From IMG/VR virus record IMGVR_UViG_3300025009_000080, positions 8,706-72,705 of that record: DNA of 64,000 bases; one strand, written 5' to 3'. Under the pieces are notes generated by a model. That model saw nothing but the letters and a program-made list of their open reading frames with translations. It was not told the DNA's origin and made no database searches. A program made the position numbers and the translations under genes. Source of the DNA: a virus. Below, one piece after another: positions 14,980-61,907 of this stretch; the stretch's first letter is position 1, and the number at the start of each line of letters is the position of its first letter.

Positions 14980-15204
14980 ATGGAATTTAAAGAAGAACAC
15001 CTTAAAGAAGGGAATATACTTATTGTGCAAGAATCAGAACCCCTTTACTCCCGTCCATTTAAAACAAGGATTATTGAAGTTACAAAAAACTCTATTTTGT
15101 ATAGTAACGAAGATATGCCGGGAAAACCCATCCTGAGACATACAATAGGAAAATTCTTGAATTGCTTCAGGTTGATAGAGTGGATTGAAGGGAAACCAAA
15201 ATGA
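14980..15204 (+). CDS. hypothetical protein
   Basis: ORF track. Confidence 0.6.
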   Translation: MEFKEEHLKEGNILIVQESEPLYSRPFKTRIIEVTKNSILYSNEDMPGKPILRHTIGKFLNCFRLIEWIEGKPK

Positions 15205-15701
15205 TACGCAGACGGAAACCCCTTAAACGCACTCCAATAAAGCGCAAGAAGCCTGTCGTTAAAAAAACGAAGTCAGACCTTACCCCCCTTCAGATTGATC
15301 GGCAAAGGCACGTTTTTGACATTCAGATTGCAGAAACAATCTGGAATAAGCGGTTTGAATTCGATAACGAAGGTAACAAAGTCAGAAGGTGTGCTGAATG
15401 TAAGCACGTAATTCACCCTCCCTGGCGCAAACATAATTTCTCCCATGTACTGGTTAAGAAAACGTATAAGAAGATCCGGTACATTGAATTAAATATTGAC
15501 CTGATATGCTGGGACTGCCACCAAAAGTGGGAGTTTGGTGACATGATTGGCATGAAAATCTACGACATTGACAAAATAAACCTTCTCAGGGCATTAGACA
15601 GAGCTATCCCGAAATTCTTTGAAGAAGATCAGTTATTCCTGTATAACAGAACCCTTAATGACGAATATAGCAGAGACGGGTGTTATAGTGTATTGAAATA
15701 A
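15201..15701 (+). CDS. HNH/NinG-like Zn-binding nuclease
   Basis: Basic N-terminus; CAEC...SH...N..LICWDCH. Confidence 0.65.
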   Translation: MIRRRKPLKRTPIKRKKPVVKKTKSDLTPLQIDRQRHVFDIQIAETIWNKRFEFDNEGNKVRRCAECKHVIHPPWRKHNFSHVLVKKTYKKIRYIELNIDLICWDCHQKWEFGDMIGMKIYDIDKINLLRALDRAIPKFFEEDQLFLYNRTLNDEYSRDGCYSVLK

Positions 15702-15880
15702 ACCTCTATTTCATCCTGAGATGTGATTCGTTTCATCTCCAAAAGGCAGGAAGTCGCTATATCTTTGATTTCCTGTCTTTTTGTTTCTACCTGATCGTCT
15801 TTTACGTCTTCCCAGACAGGTAGTTCTGCTATGCCACTACCCATATTAGTAGAGACAACTCTTGCACTCACTATTAACAT
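15683..15880 (-). CDS. small hypothetical protein (last gene of the late operon)
   Basis: ORF track; follows the fibre gene and overlaps the convergent gene by 19 nt. Confidence 0.5.
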   Translation of the reverse strand: MLIVSARVVSTNMGSGIAELPVWEDVKDDQVETKRQEIKDIATSCLLEMKRITSQDEIEVYFNTL

Positions 15881-15911
15881 AGTAAGAAAATTAAAGGGTG
15901 AATAAATAGAT

Positions 15912-18530
15912 TTACTGGTTGTAAATTATAGTCCCTGTCATTGTCAAAGTAGCTCCTAAAGCGTTACTAATCCTTACCGTTGCCCCGTTGTCCACAATGC
16001 AGAATTTAGCATCTGTATTCGTGTTAACCACGTTGGCAGAGTTTGTTATTAAAGTTACTACTGCTGCACTGGTGAAAATAGCCCAAACGTATTCCTGAGC
16101 GTCACCGATCATTAACTGGATCATACCTCCTGATGTTCCGGGAGTGATGTCAATGTAACTTCCTGCGTCGTAGTCCGTCCCTGCTTGGGTGTTGTCAACC
16201 AATGACCGCCCCAAAACCTGTAATTTGTTTGATGCTGTGTTGGTAGTTGTTCCTGTTGTAGAATTCGTTACCGTTTGTATAATTGCATCTGATTTACCCG
16301 TGCCTGTTGCCAGTCCTGATACCAACAATAAGTCACCACCATTTTTATCAGTAGCTGCAAGGGTTGCACCCGGAGCTTCGACTGTCATGTTTACCCCTGC
16401 CGTGTTGGCGGTGGTGTTGCGTTCTCCCCAAACTTTGAAGGCGGTCTGACCCGAAAAGGAAAGGAGGTTGGTGGGGGATAGTGTCCCAAACCCAACATAT
16501 CCAGTAGCTTTAATAATAGCAGAAGCCCCAGCCATTGTTGTAAAGTTTGTAATATTATTTCCAATTCCAACGTCTCCATTTATACCTATTACAATTGGTG
16601 CTAATGATCCATTTGCTATTAAAAATCGAAATGGCACATTACTATAACTCCCCAAATATGCACCACCAGCATCAACACCAAATGATCCTTTACTATTCGT
16701 TGCAGTAGCCTCAAATATTGTTCCTCCTTTAATGTGAAATTTATCAATAGGTGTTATACCAATCCCCACATTACCATTCGATAGAATGGTCATCCTTTCC
16801 GTCAAAACAGAAGGTGCTGCATCCGTGGCAGTCCAAAATGACATCTTTGTTGGTACACGGGTTGCTGCGATTGTGCCAGTGGAGGTAACTTTGATAGCCC
16901 CCATATCCAAATAGTTGGTTCCATCATACCCCTGTGCCCGGATTTCTCCTAAATCAGCCCCAGTAGTGATTACTGTCGGGGCTGCATTCGTTCCATAAGA
17001 CTTACTGAGGTTAATGATTGCCCCCTCTGTCCCATCATTGTGCTGGCTTGATGTTATGCCACGAGGTGAAGTGGTGAGAGTGGAAGAGGCGTGGAGACGA
17101 GTGGCGGGGAGAATAGTACCTAATCCTAAATTACCAGAATTATTTATTACACCAGAAACAACACCGCCTCCTCCAAATTCAAACACATTACCAGTTGAAT
17201 ATTGCACTGCTTGTAAAATTGTTGCAGATTCACTTCCTGAAAATAGTCCTCTATTTCCAGTAACTCTATAGCCAAAAATCGTACCTAATCTTACATCTAA
17301 TTGTACAATAGGGTTATTTGTCCCGATCCCCACATACCCACTTGGCAAAATCGTCATCCTTTCCGTTAAAACAGAAGGTGCTGCATCTGTGGCAGTCCAA
17401 AATGACATCTTTGTTGGTACACGGGTTGCAGCGATTGTTCCGGTGGAGGTAACTTTGATAGCCCCCATATCCAAATAGTTGGTTCCATCATACCCCTGTG
17501 CCCTGATCTCCCCTAAGTCCGCTCCTGTGGTGATGACAGTAGGGACTGCATTCGTTCCATAAGACTTACTGAGGTTAATGATTGCCCCCTCTGTCCCATC
17601 ATTGTGCTGGCTGCTCGTTATGCCACGAGGGGAGGTTGTGATCGTAGAGGCTGAATGGATGCGAGTGGCAGGAAGGGTGGTGCCGATGCCGACTAATCCG
17701 TCATCCCGTATTCTTAATTTTTCAGATAAAGCCCCGCCTGTATATGTGTAAAATTTCAAATCGGTATCCCCACTTCCAGCCCTATTTGTTCTTGTTGCTT
17801 CAATTTGAGCAAACACATTCTGTGTAGCAGAAATATCAAATTGTAACCTTACAGACCCTGCTGCTGTGCTATTTTGTAATCTAAGTAAGTCATTTGTCGC
17901 CCCTGATATAACACATTTTGGGGACATATATGTAGAATTTGCCATCCCAATCCCTACATTTCCATTCGGTAAAATAGTCATACGCTCCGTTAAAACAGAA
18001 GGTGCTGCATCTGTGGCAGTCCAGAATGACATCTTGGTTGGTACACGGGTTGCTGCGATTGTTCCGGTTGAGGCGATTTCAATTGCTCCCATTTCGAGGT
18101 AATTTGTGCCGTCGTAACCACTGGCAACCAAACGCCCTAACATATCGCCCGTTACTACCGTTGTGGGTGCTAATAGCGTTCCACGTGCTTTGCGCATATG
18201 GAATCTTGCTCCGTCTGTACCCGTGTTATATTGCGTTGACATTATGCCACGTGGTGAGCTTGTTAGTGATGAAGCAACCTGCATTTCGGTTAACGGAGAA
18301 GGAGTCCCTACACCCAACCACCCTTTTGAATTAACTACAATCACTGAATCCGATCCTGTTTTGTCGTTACGGATAACAAGCATCGTATCTGATGATCCAT
18401 TTCCATTAACCTCTACTTTAGCTGTAGCGGTTTTTATACCTACTCCAAGTTTTCCCGGAACATAGGATGTTTTCTGCGAAAATGCAAATGTGCTGATAAA
18501 CAGCGCAATAATTAATAATATCTTTTTCAT
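15912..18530 (-). CDS. tail-fibre-like beta-repeat protein with N-terminal signal peptide
   Basis: Repeated G.VGIGT..P...LH and ERMTI motifs; three copies of a roughly 115-aa module; signal peptide MKKILLIIALFISTFAFS|Q. Confidence 0.75.
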   Translation of the reverse strand: MKKILLIIALFISTFAFSQKTSYVPGKLGVGIKTATAKVEVNGNGSSDTMLVIRNDKTGSDSVIVVNSKGWLGVGTPSPLTEMQVASSLTSSPRGIMSTQYNTGTDGARFHMRKARGTLLAPTTVVTGDMLGRLVASGYDGTNYLEMGAIEIASTGTIAATRVPTKMSFWTATDAAPSVLTERMTILPNGNVGIGMANSTYMSPKCVISGATNDLLRLQNSTAAGSVRLQFDISATQNVFAQIEATRTNRAGSGDTDLKFYTYTGGALSEKLRIRDDGLVGIGTTLPATRIHSASTITTSPRGITSSQHNDGTEGAIINLSKSYGTNAVPTVITTGADLGEIRAQGYDGTNYLDMGAIKVTSTGTIAATRVPTKMSFWTATDAAPSVLTERMTILPSGYVGIGTNNPIVQLDVRLGTIFGYRVTGNRGLFSGSESATILQAVQYSTGNVFEFGGGGVVSGVINNSGNLGLGTILPATRLHASSTLTTSPRGITSSQHNDGTEGAIINLSKSYGTNAAPTVITTGADLGEIRAQGYDGTNYLDMGAIKVTSTGTIAATRVPTKMSFWTATDAAPSVLTERMTILSNGNVGIGITPIDKFHIKGGTIFEATATNSKGSFGVDAGGAYLGSYSNVPFRFLIANGSLAPIVIGINGDVGIGNNITNFTTMAGASAIIKATGYVGFGTLSPTNLLSFSGQTAFKVWGERNTTANTAGVNMTVEAPGATLAATDKNGGDLLLVSGLATGTGKSDAIIQTVTNSTTGTTTNTASNKLQVLGRSLVDNTQAGTDYDAGSYIDITPGTSGGMIQLMIGDAQEYVWAIFTSAAVVTLITNSANVVNTNTDAKFCIVDNGATVRISNALGATLTMTGTIIYNQ
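16765..18310 (-). repeat. three intragenic copies of a roughly 350-bp module (approx. 16765-17125, 17325-17690, 17955-18310)
   Basis: Shared TGTIAATRVPTKMSFWTATDAAPSVLTERMTIL; copies 2 and 3 are nearly identical in DNA. Confidence 0.85.
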
Positions 18531-57958: not shown

Positions 57959-58719
57959 TATTCTTGATATGCTCTATTTGGTGCGCCTAATTTAATTGGG
58001 GTTTCTGGTTTAATTATATCCTTATCAATGTCTTTTTTTGACCAGTTGTTTAGGGTAAGATATGCGCTTATATTGTTCTTGTGCAAATCTGCCCTATTTT
58101 GCATCGCCAGCACTTTTTCCATAATAAGTTCTTTTGAATATTTTAACATAAGTTTATTAAACTGTTCTTGTGTGATTGGCTCTTCCATTTTTGCAACTCT
58201 TGGAGCATCTTTTAGAATCCATGCCTCAAACTTCAAAAACGCTTCACTTTTCTCTTCCGGGAAAATTTCAAGTTTTTTTTCTTTTTTCTTTTTTTCTTTT
58301 TTAATACTCTTATTATTAACTTTATTTAAATCAATACTCTCTATTACTTTATTATTTTCATTTTCAGTATGGTTTTCATATGGTTTCGCATATGGTAAAC
58401 CATATGGTTCTTTTAATTTTTTTGGTCTACCACCATTCTTTCCGTTAGCAGCACGGCTTTCGTTGTATTTTCTTCTTTTTAGTGCTTCAAATTCAAGTCG
58501 CTCATTATACCAAAGCCCATTTTCGTCAATAGAAAACTTGCGTTTTAGTGAAACCGAAACAGAACCTACAATAAAGCATATGGTTTCCTCACTTAATCTG
58601 CCTTCTTGGTGCATCTGGGCAAGTATCGTAATATACTTGCCTCGGTCTTCAAAACTAAGCGTTTGTACCCCAACTATAAAGTCTTGGCTATAAAATAAAA
58701 ATGCGGGATCTTTACTCAT
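57958..58719 (-). CDS. phage replication initiator (DUF1376/YdaU-like N-terminus)
   Basis: MSKDPAFLFYSQDF...RGKYI..L...H; NGKNGGRP linker; coupled to dnaB; true start at ATG58719. Confidence 0.8.
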   Translation of the reverse strand: MSKDPAFLFYSQDFIVGVQTLSFEDRGKYITILAQMHQEGRLSEETICFIVGSVSVSLKRKFSIDENGLWYNERLEFEALKRRKYNESRAANGKNGGRPKKLKEPYGLPYAKPYENHTENENNKVIESIDLNKVNNKSIKKEKKKKEKKLEIFPEEKSEAFLKFEAWILKDAPRVAKMEEPITQEQFNKLMLKYSKELIMEKVLAMQNRADLHKNNISAYLTLNNWSKKDIDKDIIKPETPIKLGAPNRAYQE

Positions 58720-59152
58720 TGGTATAACCCTCCTTTGATATTCCAGCAAAATTAGCAGCAGCATAGGTAATGAGTCCCTTATCATCTTTATTATTAAGAA
58801 AATTTAAGATAATACTGTCTAATTTATCGTAATTTTTAAAATACAAGTTATAACCAATCTGCTCTAAGAGTGCAATTAGGTGTAATTGAGGGATATATTG
58901 AGAAATATTATCAATCCATACCTTGCATAACAATTTTGATTGTTCATGCTCCCACTTATGGCAGTCTTCACACAAGGTAATCAATTGAACACCTTCTACA
59001 TCCCATGGGGCTTCGTAATTGTTTTTAATATGGTGAACGTGTAGTGTCTCAGTGTCTCTATCACAATACCTACATTTAAACCCATCACGATTTAGGATTT
59101 CAAGGCGTTTCTTTTGCCACCTTGGGTCTTTGAATTTTTCAGAGTAATTCAT
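58712..59152 (-). CDS. HNH endonuclease
   Basis: DPRWQKKR.EIL.RD.F.C..C, LHVHH and LITLCEDCH motifs. Confidence 0.85.
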   Translation of the reverse strand: MNYSEKFKDPRWQKKRLEILNRDGFKCRYCDRDTETLHVHHIKNNYEAPWDVEGVQLITLCEDCHKWEHEQSKLLCKVWIDNISQYIPQLHLIALLEQIGYNLYFKNYDKLDSIILNFLNNKDDKGLITYAAANFAGISKEGYTNE

Positions 59153-59169
59153 AGCCTTAAAAACACCCC

Positions 59170-59228
59170 AAAAAAGAGAAGCCCGTTCGGTAATTCCAAC
59201 ATGAAAGGAGGGAATACGGACTTACTCT
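59170..59228 (-). terminator. conditional terminator in leader of replication operon
   Basis: AGAG-U-AAGUCCGU...ACGGGCUU-CUCU followed by a U-tract. Confidence 0.65.
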
Positions 59229-59269
59229 AAATTGAGGCTTTTAATAAAATAAATGTCTTTGTTAATCAT
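59222..59269 (-). CDS. putative leader peptide MINKDIYFIKSLNLE
   Basis: ATG59269 to TAA59222; the stop lies inside the 5' arm of the terminator. Confidence 0.45.
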   Translation of the reverse strand: MINKDIYFIKSLNLE

Positions 59270-59289
59270 GTTGTCTGAATTACCGGATA

Positions 59290-59334
59290 CAAAGATACAA
59301 CAATAGAAACGCAAAAGTCAAGGGTTGTTGAAAA
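59290..59334 (-). promoter_or_regulatory. replication-operon promoter with upstream box
   Basis: TTTTCAACA-4 nt-TTGAC-19 nt-TATCTTTG. Confidence 0.75.
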
Positions 59335-59336
59335 CT

Positions 59337-59368
59337 AAAAAAGCCTACCAAATTAATGATAGGCTTTT
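59337..59368 (-). terminator. intrinsic terminator of tmRNA gene (potentially bidirectional)
   Basis: AAAAGCCUAUCA-UUAAUU-UGGUAGGCUUUUUU. Confidence 0.8.
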
Positions 59369-59635
59369 CTGTCTTTCTCTTTTCAGAGTTGCTCTATGCT
59401 ACTGCCTTGAGTCTCAATGAGCGATTGAATTGATTGTCACTTGTTGTTTTGTAAATCTCTTTTTTGCATTAGTCGCTGTCAAAAGCCGGTCGCCCCCTTA
59501 AGTACCGCCAGGTAGGTTTACCACGTCTCTACGAGCACTGCGATCTTTATACTACCTGCAAGCACTGGGCTTGAGTGGAGGCGGAGGGAATCGAACCCTC
59601 GTCCAACGGTGTATCTCAAAATGTCAATGATTCAC
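59337..59635 (-). ncRNA. ssrA: circularly permuted two-piece tmRNA (acceptor piece 59635-59576, intervening segment 59575-59498, coding piece from 59497)
   Basis: Acceptor stem GGGGGCG/CGCCUCC-A with G3.U70; T-arm GAGGG-UUCGAUU-CCCUC; 5' end GGGGGCGACCGGCUUUUGAC; inter-piece pairing; tag ORF 59438-59394 DNQFNRSLRLKAVA*. Confidence 0.88.
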
Positions 59636-59639
59636 AGGG

Positions 59640-59683
59640 CAAAGGTAATATAAAAACATACCATTGTCAAGAGCTGTTAATAA
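59640..59683 (-). promoter_or_regulatory. tmRNA promoter with upstream box
   Basis: TTATTAACA-4 nt-TTGAC-18 nt-TACCTTTG. Confidence 0.8.
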
Positions 59684-59684
59684 C

Positions 59685-61907
59685 TTAAAATCTATCAGAT
59701 TTGATACGCGATCCGTGGTCAAGTTCAAGTTCATTGCGATCATTAAGGCGATACCTTAGCTTGCGTTTCGAGGCATCAACTGCCTTTGTTTCGTGAATGT
59801 TTTCGGGTGGTCGGTTCGCATAGATTTCAGCGCAAATATGACTGTACGTTACGCCGTCAATAACATCATCCCTATACATATTTGGGTTCTCTGTGGCGTA
59901 GCTCACATAGCCGATCGGGCTTACTTTCTGCACGTAGGTTTTCATCTGTAACCAGAATTGAGGGATCTCAATTATAGCACCACCCTCCACAAGCTCACGG
60001 GTCTTATTTAATATGTAGTTGGCATTATGTGACTTCTTACTGATACCCTCTCCATGGGTCGAGACCTGCATATGTTTTGGTAGCCGGTCATTGCGTACAA
60101 TATTCGTGAATCTATGAAGTTTCTTCCAGTCAATGTACGTTTGTCCGATATTGGATTCAATGAGTTCCGGGATTTTAGGGTCATACCATATTCCCAATAA
60201 GGTAGCCTGCGCAAAGCAATACTGATGATCCCTTGTGCGGTGCTTCATAATGGCCACAATCTCATTTGCAAGGCTGTCCTTTATACCAGATGCCATATCA
60301 GAGTTACCAGTAGTTGATGAAATCGGGTCAGTACCTTGGAAATATCTGTTACGCCACCCCTCCTGTGGAGGTTTTCTCACGATAACAGTGGCTATTTCGC
60401 TGTCATGTCTAACTGGTCTGAATGAAGCACCGATTACCCTGTAAGGGAAATACAAATCCGGCGTTTCTATGGTTTGGTCATAGATTGGTTCCATGTAGCC
60501 ATACATGGGTTGTTGATCCTCTGGTAAGCGGTAAATATCGTTTACGTGTTCAACGATTTCGCCAATAGGAATAAGGGTTTCATTGGACTTCAAAAACATA
60601 TCCTCAATAGAGGCAGGATAGTGTTGATGGAATTGAATCTTTGGATCTGTGCGATCACCAGGGAGTCTCTGCTTGCGATAGTAAAACCGCTTTTCCTCTT
60701 CGTATTTTTCTTTTGTTATACCCGGTTTTGAGAAGCAATCAATAAATATAGGTACAAGTCCATGCCGGAAATCCCGTTCTTTCCACGCCTCTACTGCCGC
60801 CATGTACTCACGCTCGAAATTCCCCTTCCCCTTATCCATGTCTCCTGAAGTACCAAAGCAAGTTACCTGCCGCTTCATTTCCCATTCCTTTGTTTCCGGG
60901 TTAAGCCAGAACAAAGCAGGGCGACCTTCATTAAGCATAGAAGTAAGAATAGCAATATTTCCACATTCGTCAATCAATACCTCATTGGGCTGCCCTCCGT
61001 TAATAGCTGTTTTTGTTGGAGCAACTACCTCCACTGAACTATTCCCTCCGGTTATTGTCCCTTTTTCGAGTATCTTTTTGTAGCTGAATTTTCGGGAGGT
61101 ATCGTTGTGAACTGTTGGTTTGAACCACTCTGGCTGCTTTGTGTAAGCATACTTCAGCTTGGAGTCAAAAATTTCCTCTGCCTTGTCCTTGGATTCTGCT
61201 ATGAATTTGATAAAGAAGTTTTTCTTTAGCCTTGCCCGCATTTCGGTTCTGGCAAGCATAATTGTAGAAAACCCTGTCTGTCGGAGCTTACCCATAATAG
61301 TACTGAACCCACAGTCCAATACCCAAAGCACAATAGCCTGATTCTCCCAAGCTATGTACTTTAATTCCCCTGATTCATCTTCGCCTTCCTTCATCCAAAG
61401 GTAGCGATTCAGTCCATACAGCGAATTGGTTACACACCTGTTGCGTTCCCTGATAATAAACCTACGCTCATCATCAGGTGTTTGGCAGTCGTGGAACCTT
61501 CGTTTATCTGCAAGCCAACGCTTTGCCTGCAATTTGTAGATAGCGTATTGTCGGTTGTAAACACAATGCGACATTCCCTTTAGCTGACTATCTACCCATT
61601 CAATAAATTGTTCGTTTGGAAGTAAAGGATTACCGTCATGCGCAAGCCAGTCAGCCTTTGTAATCTTCCTGTCTTTAAACTCTTTCTCGACTGCCTCTAT
61701 ACTAATATGGAAACTCCCGGTTTGCTCGGTAGTCTCCGCATTATCGTTATAGACTGGTTGGTGTATAAATCCGGCTTCAATAAGGATATTCCTACCCCTT
61801 TGATCTAACTCGATACCAGTTTGGTGTAGGTTTAGATAGTAGCTTATTAAAGAGGAATACTCAGGTGTTTCCTTATACAGATCACCCGATTTTGATGGTC
61901 TTGCCAT
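59685..61907 (-). CDS. terL: terminase large subunit
   Basis: KLRQTGFST Walker A, VLIDE Walker B, RNase H-like GTDP ... DDVIDG. Confidence 0.9.
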   Translation of the reverse strand: MARPSKSGDLYKETPEYSSLISYYLNLHQTGIELDQRGRNILIEAGFIHQPVYNDNAETTEQTGSFHISIEAVEKEFKDRKITKADWLAHDGNPLLPNEQFIEWVDSQLKGMSHCVYNRQYAIYKLQAKRWLADKRRFHDCQTPDDERRFIIRERNRCVTNSLYGLNRYLWMKEGEDESGELKYIAWENQAIVLWVLDCGFSTIMGKLRQTGFSTIMLARTEMRARLKKNFFIKFIAESKDKAEEIFDSKLKYAYTKQPEWFKPTVHNDTSRKFSYKKILEKGTITGGNSSVEVVAPTKTAINGGQPNEVLIDECGNIAILTSMLNEGRPALFWLNPETKEWEMKRQVTCFGTSGDMDKGKGNFEREYMAAVEAWKERDFRHGLVPIFIDCFSKPGITKEKYEEEKRFYYRKQRLPGDRTDPKIQFHQHYPASIEDMFLKSNETLIPIGEIVEHVNDIYRLPEDQQPMYGYMEPIYDQTIETPDLYFPYRVIGASFRPVRHDSEIATVIVRKPPQEGWRNRYFQGTDPISSTTGNSDMASGIKDSLANEIVAIMKHRTRDHQYCFAQATLLGIWYDPKIPELIESNIGQTYIDWKKLHRFTNIVRNDRLPKHMQVSTHGEGISKKSHNANYILNKTRELVEGGAIIEIPQFWLQMKTYVQKVSPIGYVSYATENPNMYRDDVIDGVTYSHICAEIYANRPPENIHETKAVDASKRKLRYRLNDRNELELDHGSRIKSDRF

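What the first reader, a model, noticed from the sequence alone, without database searches (positions are those of the whole stretch)
59337..59683. Phage-encoded circularly permuted two-piece tmRNA
Seen on the - strand, in order: promoter; acceptor piece (GUGAAUC...CGUUG-GAC-GAGGG UUCGAUU CCCUC-CGCCUCC-A, CCA not encoded); 78-nt spacer; coding piece (GGGGGCG ACCGGCUUUUGA CAGCG...); tag GAC AAU CAA UUC AAU CGC UCA UUG AGA CUC AAG GCA GUA GCA UAG = DNQFNRSLRLKAVA*; GNRA hairpin; terminator. The acceptor stem has G3.U70 and discriminator A (Ala identity). The pieces pair via CAGCG/CGUUG, CAAAA/UUUUG and GAUUUAC/GUGAAUC. Established: two-piece tmRNAs are known from Alphaproteobacteria, some Betaproteobacteria and Cyanobacteria, and some mitochondria. 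To my knowledge Bacteroidota ssrA is one-piece and phage tmRNAs are usually unpermuted. Inference: an independent permutation in a phage, using host SmpB, RNase P and CCA enzyme to rescue ribosomes stalled by defence nucleases or to redirect proteolysis.
Basis: partly seen in the sequence, partly recalled or inferred. Interest (0 to 1): 0.92.

Follow-up and report, generated by a model that had tools for sequence, protein, structure and literature searches.

The report
Phage two-piece tmRNA, Bacteroidota-type family
This uncultured phage really does carry a circularly permuted (two-piece) ribosome-rescue RNA gene, and it belongs to a conserved family found in related phages and in gut crAss-like phages, so it is genuine but less unique than first thought.

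Summary
At 59337-59647 (minus strand) lie a promoter box, a 60-nt acceptor piece, a 78-nt spacer, a coding piece with tag DNQFNRSLRLKAVA*, a GNRA hairpin and a terminator. ARAGORN calls it tmRNA*. Rfam tmRNA_permuted scores 44.8 bits, just under its cut-off of 47.

It is not a one-off. I found 13 further distinct permuted tmRNA genes: 11 in phages of the same terminase clade and 2 in RefSeq crAss-like phages cr125_1 and cr114_1. On the 14-sequence alignment 96.2% of cells pair, 15 of 22 pairs change on both sides, and 0 of 500 shuffles match this. G3.U70 is kept in 13 of 14.

The host is probably Bacteroidota. Genes lack Shine-Dalgarno sites, and a TAnnTTTG box sits at a fixed distance in 9 of 12 copies. 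No permuted tmRNA was found in 151 sampled Bacteroidota genomes.

Phage two-piece tmRNAs are already published (PMC9004378), and crAss-like copies are annotated in RefSeq. What looks new is this Bacteroidota-phage lineage and the pseudoknot-less form in the window. An independent permutation event is unproven, and function is inferred.

The parts
59640..59647 (-). Bacteroidota-type -7 promoter box TACCTTTG. A TTGACA-like element lies at 59665-59670.
   Evidence: The motif is located. The same box type lies 43-50 nt before the T-stem in 9 of 12 family copies. The consensus TTTG/TANNTTTG with G at -5 comes from passages of PMC6847099. It predicts a transcription start at G59635 (inference).
59576..59635 (-). 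Acceptor piece (60 nt). It holds the P2 3' strands (59635-59629, 59620-59617, 59608-59604), the T-arm (59600-59584), the acceptor 3' strand (59583-59577) and discriminator A (59576). CCA is not encoded.
   Evidence: Covariation of all four helices is shown.
59498..59575 (-). Intervening sequence (78 nt), predicted to be removed. It forms its own hairpin.
   Evidence: The spacer is 18-229 nt long in the relatives where it was measured, and holds a tRNA-Met in L323 and a tRNA-His in cr114_1.
59451..59497 (-). Coding-piece 5' part. It holds the acceptor 5' strand GGGGGCG (59497-59491, G3 pairs U70), the D-loop analogue (59490-59479) and the P2 5' strands (59478-59474, 59466-59463, 59457-59451).
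   Evidence: alignment. The first 24 nt are 20-21/24 identical to genuine tmRNA 5' ends. Family model R1 scores 45.4 bits, E=7.5e-11.
59394..59450 (-). 12-nt linker (59450-59439), with no room for pseudoknot PK1. Then the tag reading frame GAC...GCA (59438-59397) and the UAG stop (59396-59394). Tag: DNQFNRSLRLKAVA.
   Evidence: ARAGORN. Tags ending ...AVA with different Ala codons occur in L321 and L324. The exact resume codon is ARAGORN's choice and is not proven.
59377..59388 (-). 4-bp hairpin with a GAAA tetraloop after the stop codon.
   Evidence: It is not conserved in sequence in the relatives (by eye).
59337..59367 (-). Intrinsic terminator-like hairpin followed by a U-run; the likely 3' end of the coding piece.
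   Evidence: MFE fold. The simple terminator scan did not list it. Relatives also end in a hairpin plus U-run.
59685..61907 (-). Terminase large subunit gene immediately upstream. Context only, but it was used to find the related phages.
   Evidence: PHROGs. A family of 124 proteins.
58712..59152 (-). Free-standing HNH endonuclease gene immediately downstream, with its own TAnnTTTG box (59290-59297). Context only.

Best explanation
This is a genuine, selectively maintained two-piece (circularly permuted) tmRNA gene carried by a complete 72.7-kb uncultured phage that most likely infects a member of the Bacteroidota.

Proposed mechanism:
1. A host-type promoter (-7 box TACCTTTG) drives one precursor transcript that starts at about G59635.
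2. Host RNase P cuts 5' of G59497. Host 3'-processing enzymes trim after A59576, and the host CCA-adding enzyme completes the acceptor end. The 78-nt spacer is discarded.
3. The 60-nt acceptor piece and the ~160-nt coding piece stay together through the 7-bp acceptor stem and a three-segment P2 helix.
4. Host AlaRS charges the RNA, reading G3.U70 and A73. Host SmpB and EF-Tu deliver it to stalled ribosomes.
5. Translation resumes on the tag frame and adds (A)DNQFNRSLRLKAVA. This frees ribosomes during infection and marks the truncated proteins.

Shown here: the gene anatomy, its conservation and its base-pair covariation across 14 distinct copies; the host-type promoter and translation signals; the absence of phage SmpB and integrase.

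Inferred: processing, charging, tagging and any benefit to the phage.
For: Detection:
- ARAGORN calls tmRNA*.
- RF04321 scores 44.8 bits, E=1.5e-7, with all consensus pairs canonical.
- Family model R1 scores 45.4 bits, E=7.5e-11.

Homologues:
- RF04321 matched 8 of the 80 related IMG/VR records searched at 40.2-55.3 bits, 4 of them over the cut-off.
- R1 matched 6 of 80 metagenomic loci.
- RefSeq crAss-like phages cr125_1 and cr114_1 match.

Covariation:
- On 14 distinct sequences, 96.2% of cells pair, against 76.9+-1.5% in shuffles and 47-57% when partners are slid. 15 of 22 pairs change on both sides (50 cells), and 0 of 500 shuffles reach this. G3.U70 is kept in 13 of 14 and G1-C72/G2-C71 in 14 of 14.
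- On the structure-blind MAFFT alignment, 96.7% pair against 42-58% when slid. Three pairs show double changes, and 3 of 500 shuffles reach this.

Identity and expression signals:
- Discriminator A is present and CCA is not encoded in the 11 copies that could be read cleanly.
- A TAnnTTTG box lies 43-50 nt before the T-stem in 9 of 12 copies.
- Tags end in AVA, LAA, AAA, IAA or EAA.

Host:
- An SD core precedes 4 of 79 ORFs, against a 6.6% background, with A peaks at -13, -12, -6/-5 and -3. This matches passages of PMC6847099.
- The whole terminase clade behaves likewise (3/76 and 53/916), against 180/932 in cross-phylum bacterial loci.

Other:
- The phage has no SmpB and no integrase.
Against: - No expression, processing or tagging data exist for any family member.
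- The window's score is below Rfam's curated cut-off (44.8 against 47; nothing is reported at gathering threshold).
- ARAGORN tmRNA* calls can be spurious: it made 4 extra false calls in 133 bacterial loci.
- Energy gives only weak support for the window's own P2. Whole-molecule binding is no better than with a shuffled 5' extension (178 of 300 shuffles are as good). The isolated P2 beats shuffles only modestly (31-87 of 1000 reach it).
- The window and L321 lack the ~45-65-nt PK1-like region that the other copies have. As I recall, PK1 matters for tagging in E. coli.
- The resume codon is only ARAGORN's guess.
- The gene is sporadic. Among the 8 relatives that are at least 90% complete, only one (G407) has a strong match.
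- The model-fitted alignments lean towards the structure.
- The host phylum is inferred; no host is known.
Confidence: 0.8

Rival explanations
1. The RNA is made and folds as a tRNA-like domain, but it does not tag proteins. It acts as a decoy that soaks up host SmpB or AlaRS and inhibits host trans-translation, or it rescues ribosomes without a functional tag. This would apply especially to the pseudoknot-less window and L321 forms.
For: Only 12 nt (window) and 14 nt (L321) separate P2 from the proposed resume codon, against about 45-65 nt in the other copies. Passages of PMC4131195 and PMC11915505 describe mycobacteriophage DS6A's domain-only tmRNA, and say that a similar molecule inhibits tmRNA in E. 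coli.
Against: An open tag frame with an in-frame stop and an alanine-rich C-terminus is kept in every copy read. The ...AVA ending is shared by the window, L321 and L324 with different Ala codons, which points to constraint at the peptide level. A pure decoy would not need a tag frame or its own terminator-bounded coding piece.
Confidence: 0.13
2. The window's copy is a decaying relic of the family gene that has lost PK1 and is no longer functional.
For: It has a reduced architecture and a sub-threshold Rfam score. The gene is sporadic within the phage clade.
Against: - All 12 acceptor and T-stem pairs and all 14 aligned P2 pairs are canonical.
- The promoter box sits at the family's conserved distance, and the terminator is intact.
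- The equally reduced L321 copy, from a phage whose terminase is 39% identical, differs in sequence but keeps the pairing, the promoter box and a similar tag.
Confidence: 0.05
3. It is not a tmRNA gene at all. It is a chance juxtaposition, an ARAGORN false positive, or a tRNA/tmRNA 3' fragment kept as a phage attachment site.
For: ARAGORN produced 4 spurious tmRNA* calls in 133 bacterial loci. The 29-nt 3' tRNA-like end is shared across many phyla.
Against: - The 5' half matches real tmRNA 5' ends at 20-21 of 24 positions.
- Both halves are scored jointly by two covariance models.
- Thirteen homologues show compensatory changes.
- The phage has no integrase.
Confidence: 0.02

Closest known systems
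Permuted tmRNA genes of crAss-like phages cr125_1 (NC_055900) and cr114_1 (NC_055897), Crassvirales, Suoliviridae. RefSeq annotates them as 'transfer-messenger RNA, SsrA'.
   Same: They have the same gene order (acceptor piece, spacer, coding piece). They match the family model R1 at 52.6 and 60.2 bits and RF04321 at 46.3 and 50.9 bits. ARAGORN calls tmRNA* in both, CCA-less, with a tag ending ...IAA. Crassvirales are associated with Bacteroidales hosts (abstract listing of PMC6235969).
   Different: They belong to an unrelated phage group: the window's terminase finds no crAss-like hit. They have longer spacers (one holds a tRNA-His) and about 100 nt between the 5' end and the tag, so they retain a PK1-like region that the window lacks. 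They come from the gut rather than groundwater.
Two-piece tmRNA of phage Melnitz and related marine myophages (PMC9004378)
   Same: It is a phage-encoded, permuted ssrA that ARAGORN detects as tmRNA* and that is expressed from its own promoter. The proposed use is ribosome rescue or recycling during infection (passages read).
   Different: The authors report that the Melnitz gene groups with alphaproteobacterial ssrA and carries a glutamine riboswitch. Its hosts are OM43/SAR11-type Proteobacteria. The window's gene shows no riboswitch, has Bacteroidota-type signals, and fits none of the alpha, beta or cyano Rfam models beyond the tRNA-like domain.
Bacterial two-piece tmRNAs of Alphaproteobacteria, some Betaproteobacteria and Cyanobacteria (Rfam RF01849-RF01851, merged as RF04321)
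   Same: The permuted gene order, the tRNA-like domain and the P2 helix geometry are the same. The window aligns to RF04321 positions 1-133 with canonical pairs.
   Different: - The window is below the RF04321 cut-off (44.8 against 47).
- The best lineage model (beta) matches only the tRNA-like domain (44.1 against a cut-off of 84).
- No pseudoknot is present.
- CCA is not encoded.
- The gene sits in a phage whose likely host phylum has one-piece ssrA.
One-piece tmRNA of Cellulophaga phages Calle_1-3, phi38:1 and phi40:1 (Pervagoviridae)
   Same: They are phages of a Bacteroidota host with a similar genome size (~73 kb). The acceptor stem is identical, the 3' end is identical over 32 nt, CCA is not encoded, and the 5' domain carries UUUUGACAG.
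   Different: The gene is standard and unpermuted: 360 nt, RF00023 at 86.6-87.6 bits, with a 22-residue tag. The shared 3' end is pan-bacterial, so it does not show a specific relationship.
Mycobacteriophage DS6A tRNA-like-domain-only tmRNA
   Same: It is a phage-borne, strongly reduced tmRNA derivative (passages of PMC4131195 and PMC11915505).
   Different: DS6A lacks a tag frame altogether, whereas the window keeps a conserved tag frame and stop.

Membership tests
tmRNA (ssrA) in general | 7-bp acceptor stem with G3.U70 and discriminator A73 (alanine identity) | tested here: met
   The window has GGGGGCG/CGCCUCC plus A. Across the family, G3.U70 is kept in 13 of 14 copies, and pairs 5-68, 6-67 and 7-66 covary.
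tmRNA (ssrA) in general | T-arm with a T-loop consensus, and a 5' D-loop analogue (GGnUUnGAC) flanking the acceptor stem | tested here: met
   The Rfam alignment has high posterior probability over both. The 5' 24 nt are 20-21/24 identical to genuine tmRNAs.
tmRNA (ssrA) in general | Internal tag reading frame with an in-frame stop and an alanine-rich, hydrophobic C-terminus | tested here: met
   The tag is DNQFNRSLRLKAVA*. Relatives end in AVA, LAA, AAA, IAA or EAA. The resume codon itself is not verified.
tmRNA (ssrA) in general | Pseudoknot PK1 between helix P2 and the resume codon | tested here: not met
   Only 12 nt separate the distal P2 strand from the proposed resume codon. Other family members have about 45-65 nt there, with a covarying hairpin (read by eye). 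That PK1 is typical of tmRNAs is recalled, not tested.
tmRNA (ssrA) in general | Alanylation, SmpB binding and trans-translation activity | not testable with these tools
   The phage has no SmpB gene and the host is unknown. No RNA data are available.
Rfam RF04321 tmRNA_permuted | Score at or above the curated gathering cut-off (47 bits) | tested here: not met
   The window scores 44.8 bits, E=1.5e-7, and is absent at gathering threshold. Of 9 distinct family copies scored with RF04321, 3 pass: L323 at 55.3, L324 at 52.1 and cr114_1 at 50.9.
Rfam RF04321 tmRNA_permuted | Permuted gene order: 3' tRNA-like half, intervening sequence, then the 5' tRNA-like half and tag | tested here: met
   The same order is seen in all 13 homologues.
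Alpha-, beta- or cyanobacterial two-piece tmRNA (RF01849, RF01850, RF01851) | Lineage-specific structure beyond the tRNA-like domain, reaching the family's cut-off | tested here: not met
   The best model is beta_tmRNA at 44.1 bits against a cut-off of 84. It covers model positions 78-165 of 331 only. The alpha and cyano models scored lower and were dropped by clan competition. Relatives score 29-32 bits.
Phage permuted tmRNA family defined here (model R1) | Significant match to a model built from four other members, with compensatory pairing in the acceptor, T and P2 helices | tested here: met
   The window was not in the seed and scores 45.4 bits, E=7.5e-11, full length. Covariation is shown.
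Phage attachment-site fragment of a tRNA/tmRNA gene | A 3' gene fragment next to an integrase, with no matching 5' half | tested here: not met
   The genome has no PF00589 integrase, and a complete 5' tRNA-like half is present.

The most novel reading that the evidence does not exclude
These genes represent a fourth, independently permuted lineage of two-piece tmRNA. It circulates only among phages of Bacteroidota: this ~70-kb uncultured clade and crAss-like Suoliviridae. Their hosts keep one-piece ssrA. The window and L321 would then show that a tmRNA without any pseudoknot can still be maintained by selection, and perhaps still tag proteins. The spacer would also serve as a landing site for tRNA genes that are co-processed with the tmRNA.
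Probability: 0.3. Interest if true: 0.65.

Novelty: new variant of a known kind. Interest (0 to 1): 0.5.

Why it matters
Two-piece tmRNAs have been treated as a feature of three bacterial clades, plus organelles and the phages of those clades. Here a conserved permuted family sits in phages with Bacteroidota-type expression signals, including abundant gut crAss-like phages. No sampled Bacteroidota genome had a permuted gene.

Three things follow.
1. It is a possible additional origin of gene permutation in an essential RNA.
2. The window and L321 are natural minimal two-piece tmRNAs without pseudoknots, which makes the question of what PK1 is needed for directly testable.
3. Routine tools under-detect these genes. 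ARAGORN found 7 of the 14 distinct copies, and Rfam's cut-off passed 3 of the 9 scored. Phage tmRNA surveys therefore probably undercount them.

The general idea that phages carry two-piece tmRNAs is already published, so this extends known biology rather than founding a new class.

Tried and rejected
1. IMG/VR pattern scans for homologues.
- Two correctly specified scans found nothing: the exact 3' end, spacer and 5' start, and the 5' domain variant.
- Four scans used a generic pattern with one N too many. Searches show it cannot match even the window. They are void as negative evidence.
- Their 17 hits were tRNA clusters, one standard tmRNA or tRNA-like fragments.

2. ARAGORN on terminase-linked loci.
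- It made no tmRNA call in the 80 viral loci or in the first 40 metagenomic loci.
- I first read this as absence. That was wrong: covariance models later found copies in 7 of those viral loci and in L243.

3. Rfam E-value search of the 8 closest metagenomic loci returned nothing.

4. The single-protein terminase search of IMG/VR found no relative.

5. Cultured phages.
- megablast of 10 kb gave no match.
- Terminase tblastn gave only weak Ralstonia phage hits.
- Portal tblastn gave none.
- The 5'-domain blastn gave only noise.

6. Gene order next to the terminase is not conserved, so insertion boundaries could not be mapped.

7. The 32-nt identity with Cellulophaga phages is rejected as a host or ancestry signal, because the 29-mer occurs in at least 120 loci across many phyla.

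8. The raw TAnnTTTG count (83 against 68+-8) and the composite promoter pattern (6 against 3.4) were not significant window-wide.

9. Energy tests of inter-piece binding were weak.

10. MAFFT alignments A2 and A3, and the acceptor strand of A4, were mis-registered because spacer lengths differ. They were not used for acceptor-stem counts.

11. Similarity beyond the tRNA-like domain to 131 one-piece tmRNAs was uninformative.

12. Sequencing runs.
- No RNA holder is listed. There are four DNA runs from one groundwater study, which may be the source of this DNA.
- The laid contigs were identical to the window, so no variants were available.

13. Literature.
- Searches.
- Passages read in PMC9004378, PMC11915505, PMC4131195, PMC8776804, PMC7162821, PMC6847099, PMC13503771 and PMC12291355.
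- I found no description of a permuted tmRNA lineage in Bacteroidota or crAss-like phages.
- Supplementary tables that could hold such entries were closed: Table S1 of PMC9004378 and Table S2 of PMC11915505.

14. Weak RF04321 matches (13-22 bits) in G409, G446, G478 and G480 were not followed up.

15. The five metagenomic copies (L243, L253, L254, L258, L262) were not scored with RF04321.

Full report
**What is in the window**

The window is bases 8706-72705 of a 72,705-bp IMG/VR virus record that CheckV rates as 100% complete. Around the finding, all on the minus strand, lie a terminase large subunit gene (59685-61907), an HNH endonuclease gene (58712-59152), primosomal and DnaB-like genes, and a portal gene. 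No ORF of 50 aa or more lies in 59153-59684.

Read on the minus strand, the locus contains, in order:
- a TACCTTTG box (59647-59640);
- a 60-nt acceptor piece (59635-59576) ending in a T-arm, the acceptor 3' strand and discriminator A, followed by CUC rather than CCA;
- a 78-nt spacer;
- a coding piece starting at G59497, with the acceptor 5' strand (G3 opposite U70) and a tmRNA-type D-loop analogue;
- a tag frame, DNQFNRSLRLKAVA, then a stop;
- a GAAA-capped hairpin;
- a terminator hairpin with a U-run ending near 59337.

**Is it more than chance?**

- ARAGORN calls a permuted tmRNA with the same tag, and it is the only tRNA-like gene in the whole genome.
- Rfam reports nothing at gathering thresholds. 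In E-value mode the generic permuted model RF04321 scores 44.8 bits against a cut-off of 47 (E=1.5e-7), and all consensus pairs are canonical. The betaproteobacterial model matches only the tRNA-like domain, at 44.1 bits against a cut-off of 84.
- The precursor folds better than all 100 shuffles, z=-3.78.
- The corrected generic permuted pattern matches once, against none in 100 shuffles.

Some caution was warranted.
- ARAGORN produced 4 spurious extra tmRNA* calls in 133 bacterial loci.
- Sub-threshold RF04321 matches of up to 40.7 bits occur in Bacteroidota genomes, where they sit on the 5' ends of ordinary one-piece genes.
- Energy tests of the window's own inter-piece helix are weak. For whole-molecule binding, 178 of 300 shuffles are as good. 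For the isolated P2, 31-87 of 1000 shuffles reach the observed value.

A single sequence was therefore suggestive rather than conclusive.

**Homologues**

My first searches failed, partly through my own error. Two well-specified IMG/VR scans found nothing. Four scans used a generic pattern with one N too many and are void (shown).

The terminase has a large uncultured family: 124 proteins, many on contigs of 65-80 kb. I fetched 80 viral and 80 metagenomic loci around its relatives. ARAGORN found no tmRNA in the 120 loci first scanned, and I provisionally took the gene to be absent from relatives. That was wrong.

- Searching the whole IMG/VR records behind the 80 viral loci with RF04321 gave matches of 40.2-55.3 bits in 8 records, 4 of them over the cut-off. 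The 14 metagenomic handles also given were not held and were not searched.
- A covariance model (R1) built from four of these copies recovered the window, which was not in the seed, at 45.4 bits (E=7.5e-11). It also found 6 more copies in the 80 metagenomic loci, one of them truncated.
- Blastn with family members then hit RefSeq crAss-like phages.
- cr125_1 and cr114_1 carry an annotated 'transfer-messenger RNA, SsrA'. ARAGORN calls both tmRNA*, with tag GNFYVTDYTRIAA*. R1 scores them 52.6 and 60.2 bits, and RF04321 scores them 46.3 and 50.9.
- Fourteen deposited phage records hold similar sequence, and 5 of them have a tmRNA annotated there. I verified the permuted form only in those two.

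**Comparative evidence**

Dissecting the copies shows:
- acceptor stems that differ in sequence but pair throughout. Pair 5-68 is G-C, A-U, U-A or C-G. Pair 6-67 is C-G, U-A, G-C or A-U. Pair 7-66 is G-C, A-U or U-A;
- G1-C72, G2-C71 and G3.U70 kept;
- discriminator A, and no encoded CCA, in the 11 copies that could be read cleanly;
- spacers of 18-229 nt.

On the model-based alignment of 14 distinct sequences:
- 96.2% of cells pair, against 76.9+-1.5% in shuffles and 47-57% when partners are slid;
- 15 of 22 pairs change on both sides (50 cells);
- no shuffle in 500 reaches any of the five measures;
- all four helices show double changes, including both helices that join the two pieces (the 12-sequence version is).

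Such alignments lean towards the model. So I also scored the P2 and T helices on a purely sequence-based MAFFT alignment of four copies. There 96.7% pair, against 42-58% when slid. Three pairs show double changes, and 3 of 500 shuffles reach this. Rfam's curated consensus, which is independent of these sequences, gives canonical P2 pairs in the window, L321, L320 and L326.

Tags end in AVA, LAA, AAA, IAA or EAA. The AVA ending in the window, L321 and L324 uses different alanine codons, which suggests constraint at the peptide level.

I conclude that the gene is real and under selection.

**Host**

The 32-nt identity to Cellulophaga phage tmRNAs is not diagnostic, because that 3' end is pan-bacterial. 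The better evidence is this.
- Only 4 of 79 ORFs have a Shine-Dalgarno core, against a 6.6% background. The upstream regions are G-poor, with A peaks at -13, -12, -6/-5 and -3.
- The terminase clade behaves the same way (3/76 and 53/916). Bacteroidota control loci give 2/65, and cross-phylum bacterial loci give 180/932.
- A perfect TAnnTTTG box lies 43-50 nt before the T-stem in 9 of 12 copies.
- Passages of PMC6847099 state that Bacteroidetes lack SD sequences and use a -33/-7 promoter, TTTG/TANNTTTG, with G at -5. They also state that these organisms favour A at -3, -6, -12 and -13.
- With G at -5, the window's transcript would start at G59635, the first base of the distal P2 helix.

The crAss-like members add an independent link to Bacteroidales (abstract listing). 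The host is nevertheless inferred.

In the Bacteroidota genomes sampled:
- no permuted tmRNA reached the cut-off (0 of 151);
- the six best sub-threshold matches all overlapped one-piece genes;
- 15 of 401 genomes carry the window's 5'-domain variant.

**Mechanism**

The phage has no SmpB and no integrase. The most likely mechanism is the standard two-piece pathway run entirely on host factors:
1. one precursor transcript is made from the box promoter;
2. RNase P cuts at G59497;
3. the 3' end is trimmed and CCA is added after A59576;
4. the two pieces associate through the acceptor stem and P2;
5. AlaRS charges the RNA via G3.U70 and A73;
6. SmpB-dependent entry into stalled ribosomes follows, and nascent chains are tagged.

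All steps after transcription are inferred from family knowledge.

The window and L321 differ from the other members. They have only 12-14 nt between P2 and the proposed resume codon, where the others have about 45-65 nt containing a covarying hairpin in the position of PK1 (by eye). This makes a non-tagging decoy role a real rival for these two. Against that, they keep similar tag frames.

**Comparison with what is known**

- Phage two-piece tmRNAs are in print. PMC9004378 describes Melnitz and reports that ARAGORN called 53 of 133 unique phage tmRNA structures as two-piece, mostly in aquatic phages (passages).
- PMC11915505 built RF04321 from the three bacterial clades and lists 79 phage sequences (passages).
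- The crAss-like copies are annotated in RefSeq, though without mention of permutation.
- I found no paper describing a permuted lineage in Bacteroidota or crAss-like phages. The relevant supplements were closed, however.
- Beyond the tRNA-like domain, the family shows no informative similarity to the 131 one-piece tmRNAs I held. I had no alpha or cyanobacterial sequences to compare. Whether the permutation arose independently remains open.

**Verdict**

The claim of uniqueness is not supported, and the claim of an independent permutation is unproven.

I rate it a new variant of a known kind: a Bacteroidota-phage lineage with a pseudoknot-less form. Interest is moderate. The practical point is that ARAGORN found only 7 of the 14 distinct copies, and Rfam's cut-off passed only 3 of the 9 scored.

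Noticed in passing
L323:1614-1689 (minus strand) and L333:1544-1616: tRNA genes are nested inside the tmRNA spacer: a tRNA-Met in L323 (spacer 229 nt) and a tRNA-His in crAss-like phage cr114_1. The spacer seems to act as a landing site where a tRNA would be co-transcribed and co-processed with the two tmRNA pieces.
   Followed up: partly
L004-L083, L204-L283 and bacterial loci L084-L203: ARAGORN is unreliable for this family in both directions. It called 7 of the 14 distinct permuted copies. It also made 4 spurious extra tmRNA* calls next to genuine one-piece genes in 133 bacterial loci.
   Followed up: yes
window 58712-59152 and 59290-59321 (minus strand): A free-standing HNH endonuclease gene with its own TTGAC...TATCTTTG promoter lies directly downstream of the tmRNA. 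In most relatives the tmRNA lies upstream of the terminase instead. The window's tmRNA-HNH arrangement may therefore reflect a relocation or a homing event.
   Followed up: no
Relatives of the window's terminase (proteins P0024, P0038, P0073, P0081, P0090, P0100, P0101, P0102, P0117): Nine terminase homologues are 978-1177 aa long and carry the precomputed Pfam families PF14528 and/or PF14890, which the shorter homologues lack. As I recall, these are intein/homing-endonuclease families, so the terminase may be split by an intein in part of this phage clade.
   Followed up: no
L321:1860-2004: Downstream of the L321 tmRNA there is a second T-arm-like element, and a tRNA-like gene that ARAGORN reports with an undetermined anticodon (tRNA-???). 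Rfam scores it as a tRNA at 41.8 bits.
   Followed up: no
L332:2252-2443 and L333:2391-2582: In both crAss-like phages a gene annotated 'ribosomal protein-like protein' lies about 350-500 nt downstream of the permuted tmRNA on the same strand. This hints at a small translation-related module.
   Followed up: no
L258:214-505 (minus strand): This family copy seems to have a one-base irregularity in the T-stem/acceptor junction, and it accounts for most of the unpaired cells in the acceptor helix. It may be a sequencing error or a degenerating copy.
   Followed up: no
window ~15000-17000: AT skew and GC skew change sign near 16 kb. This is consistent with a switch of coding strand between two divergent gene blocks of the phage genome.
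   Followed up: no
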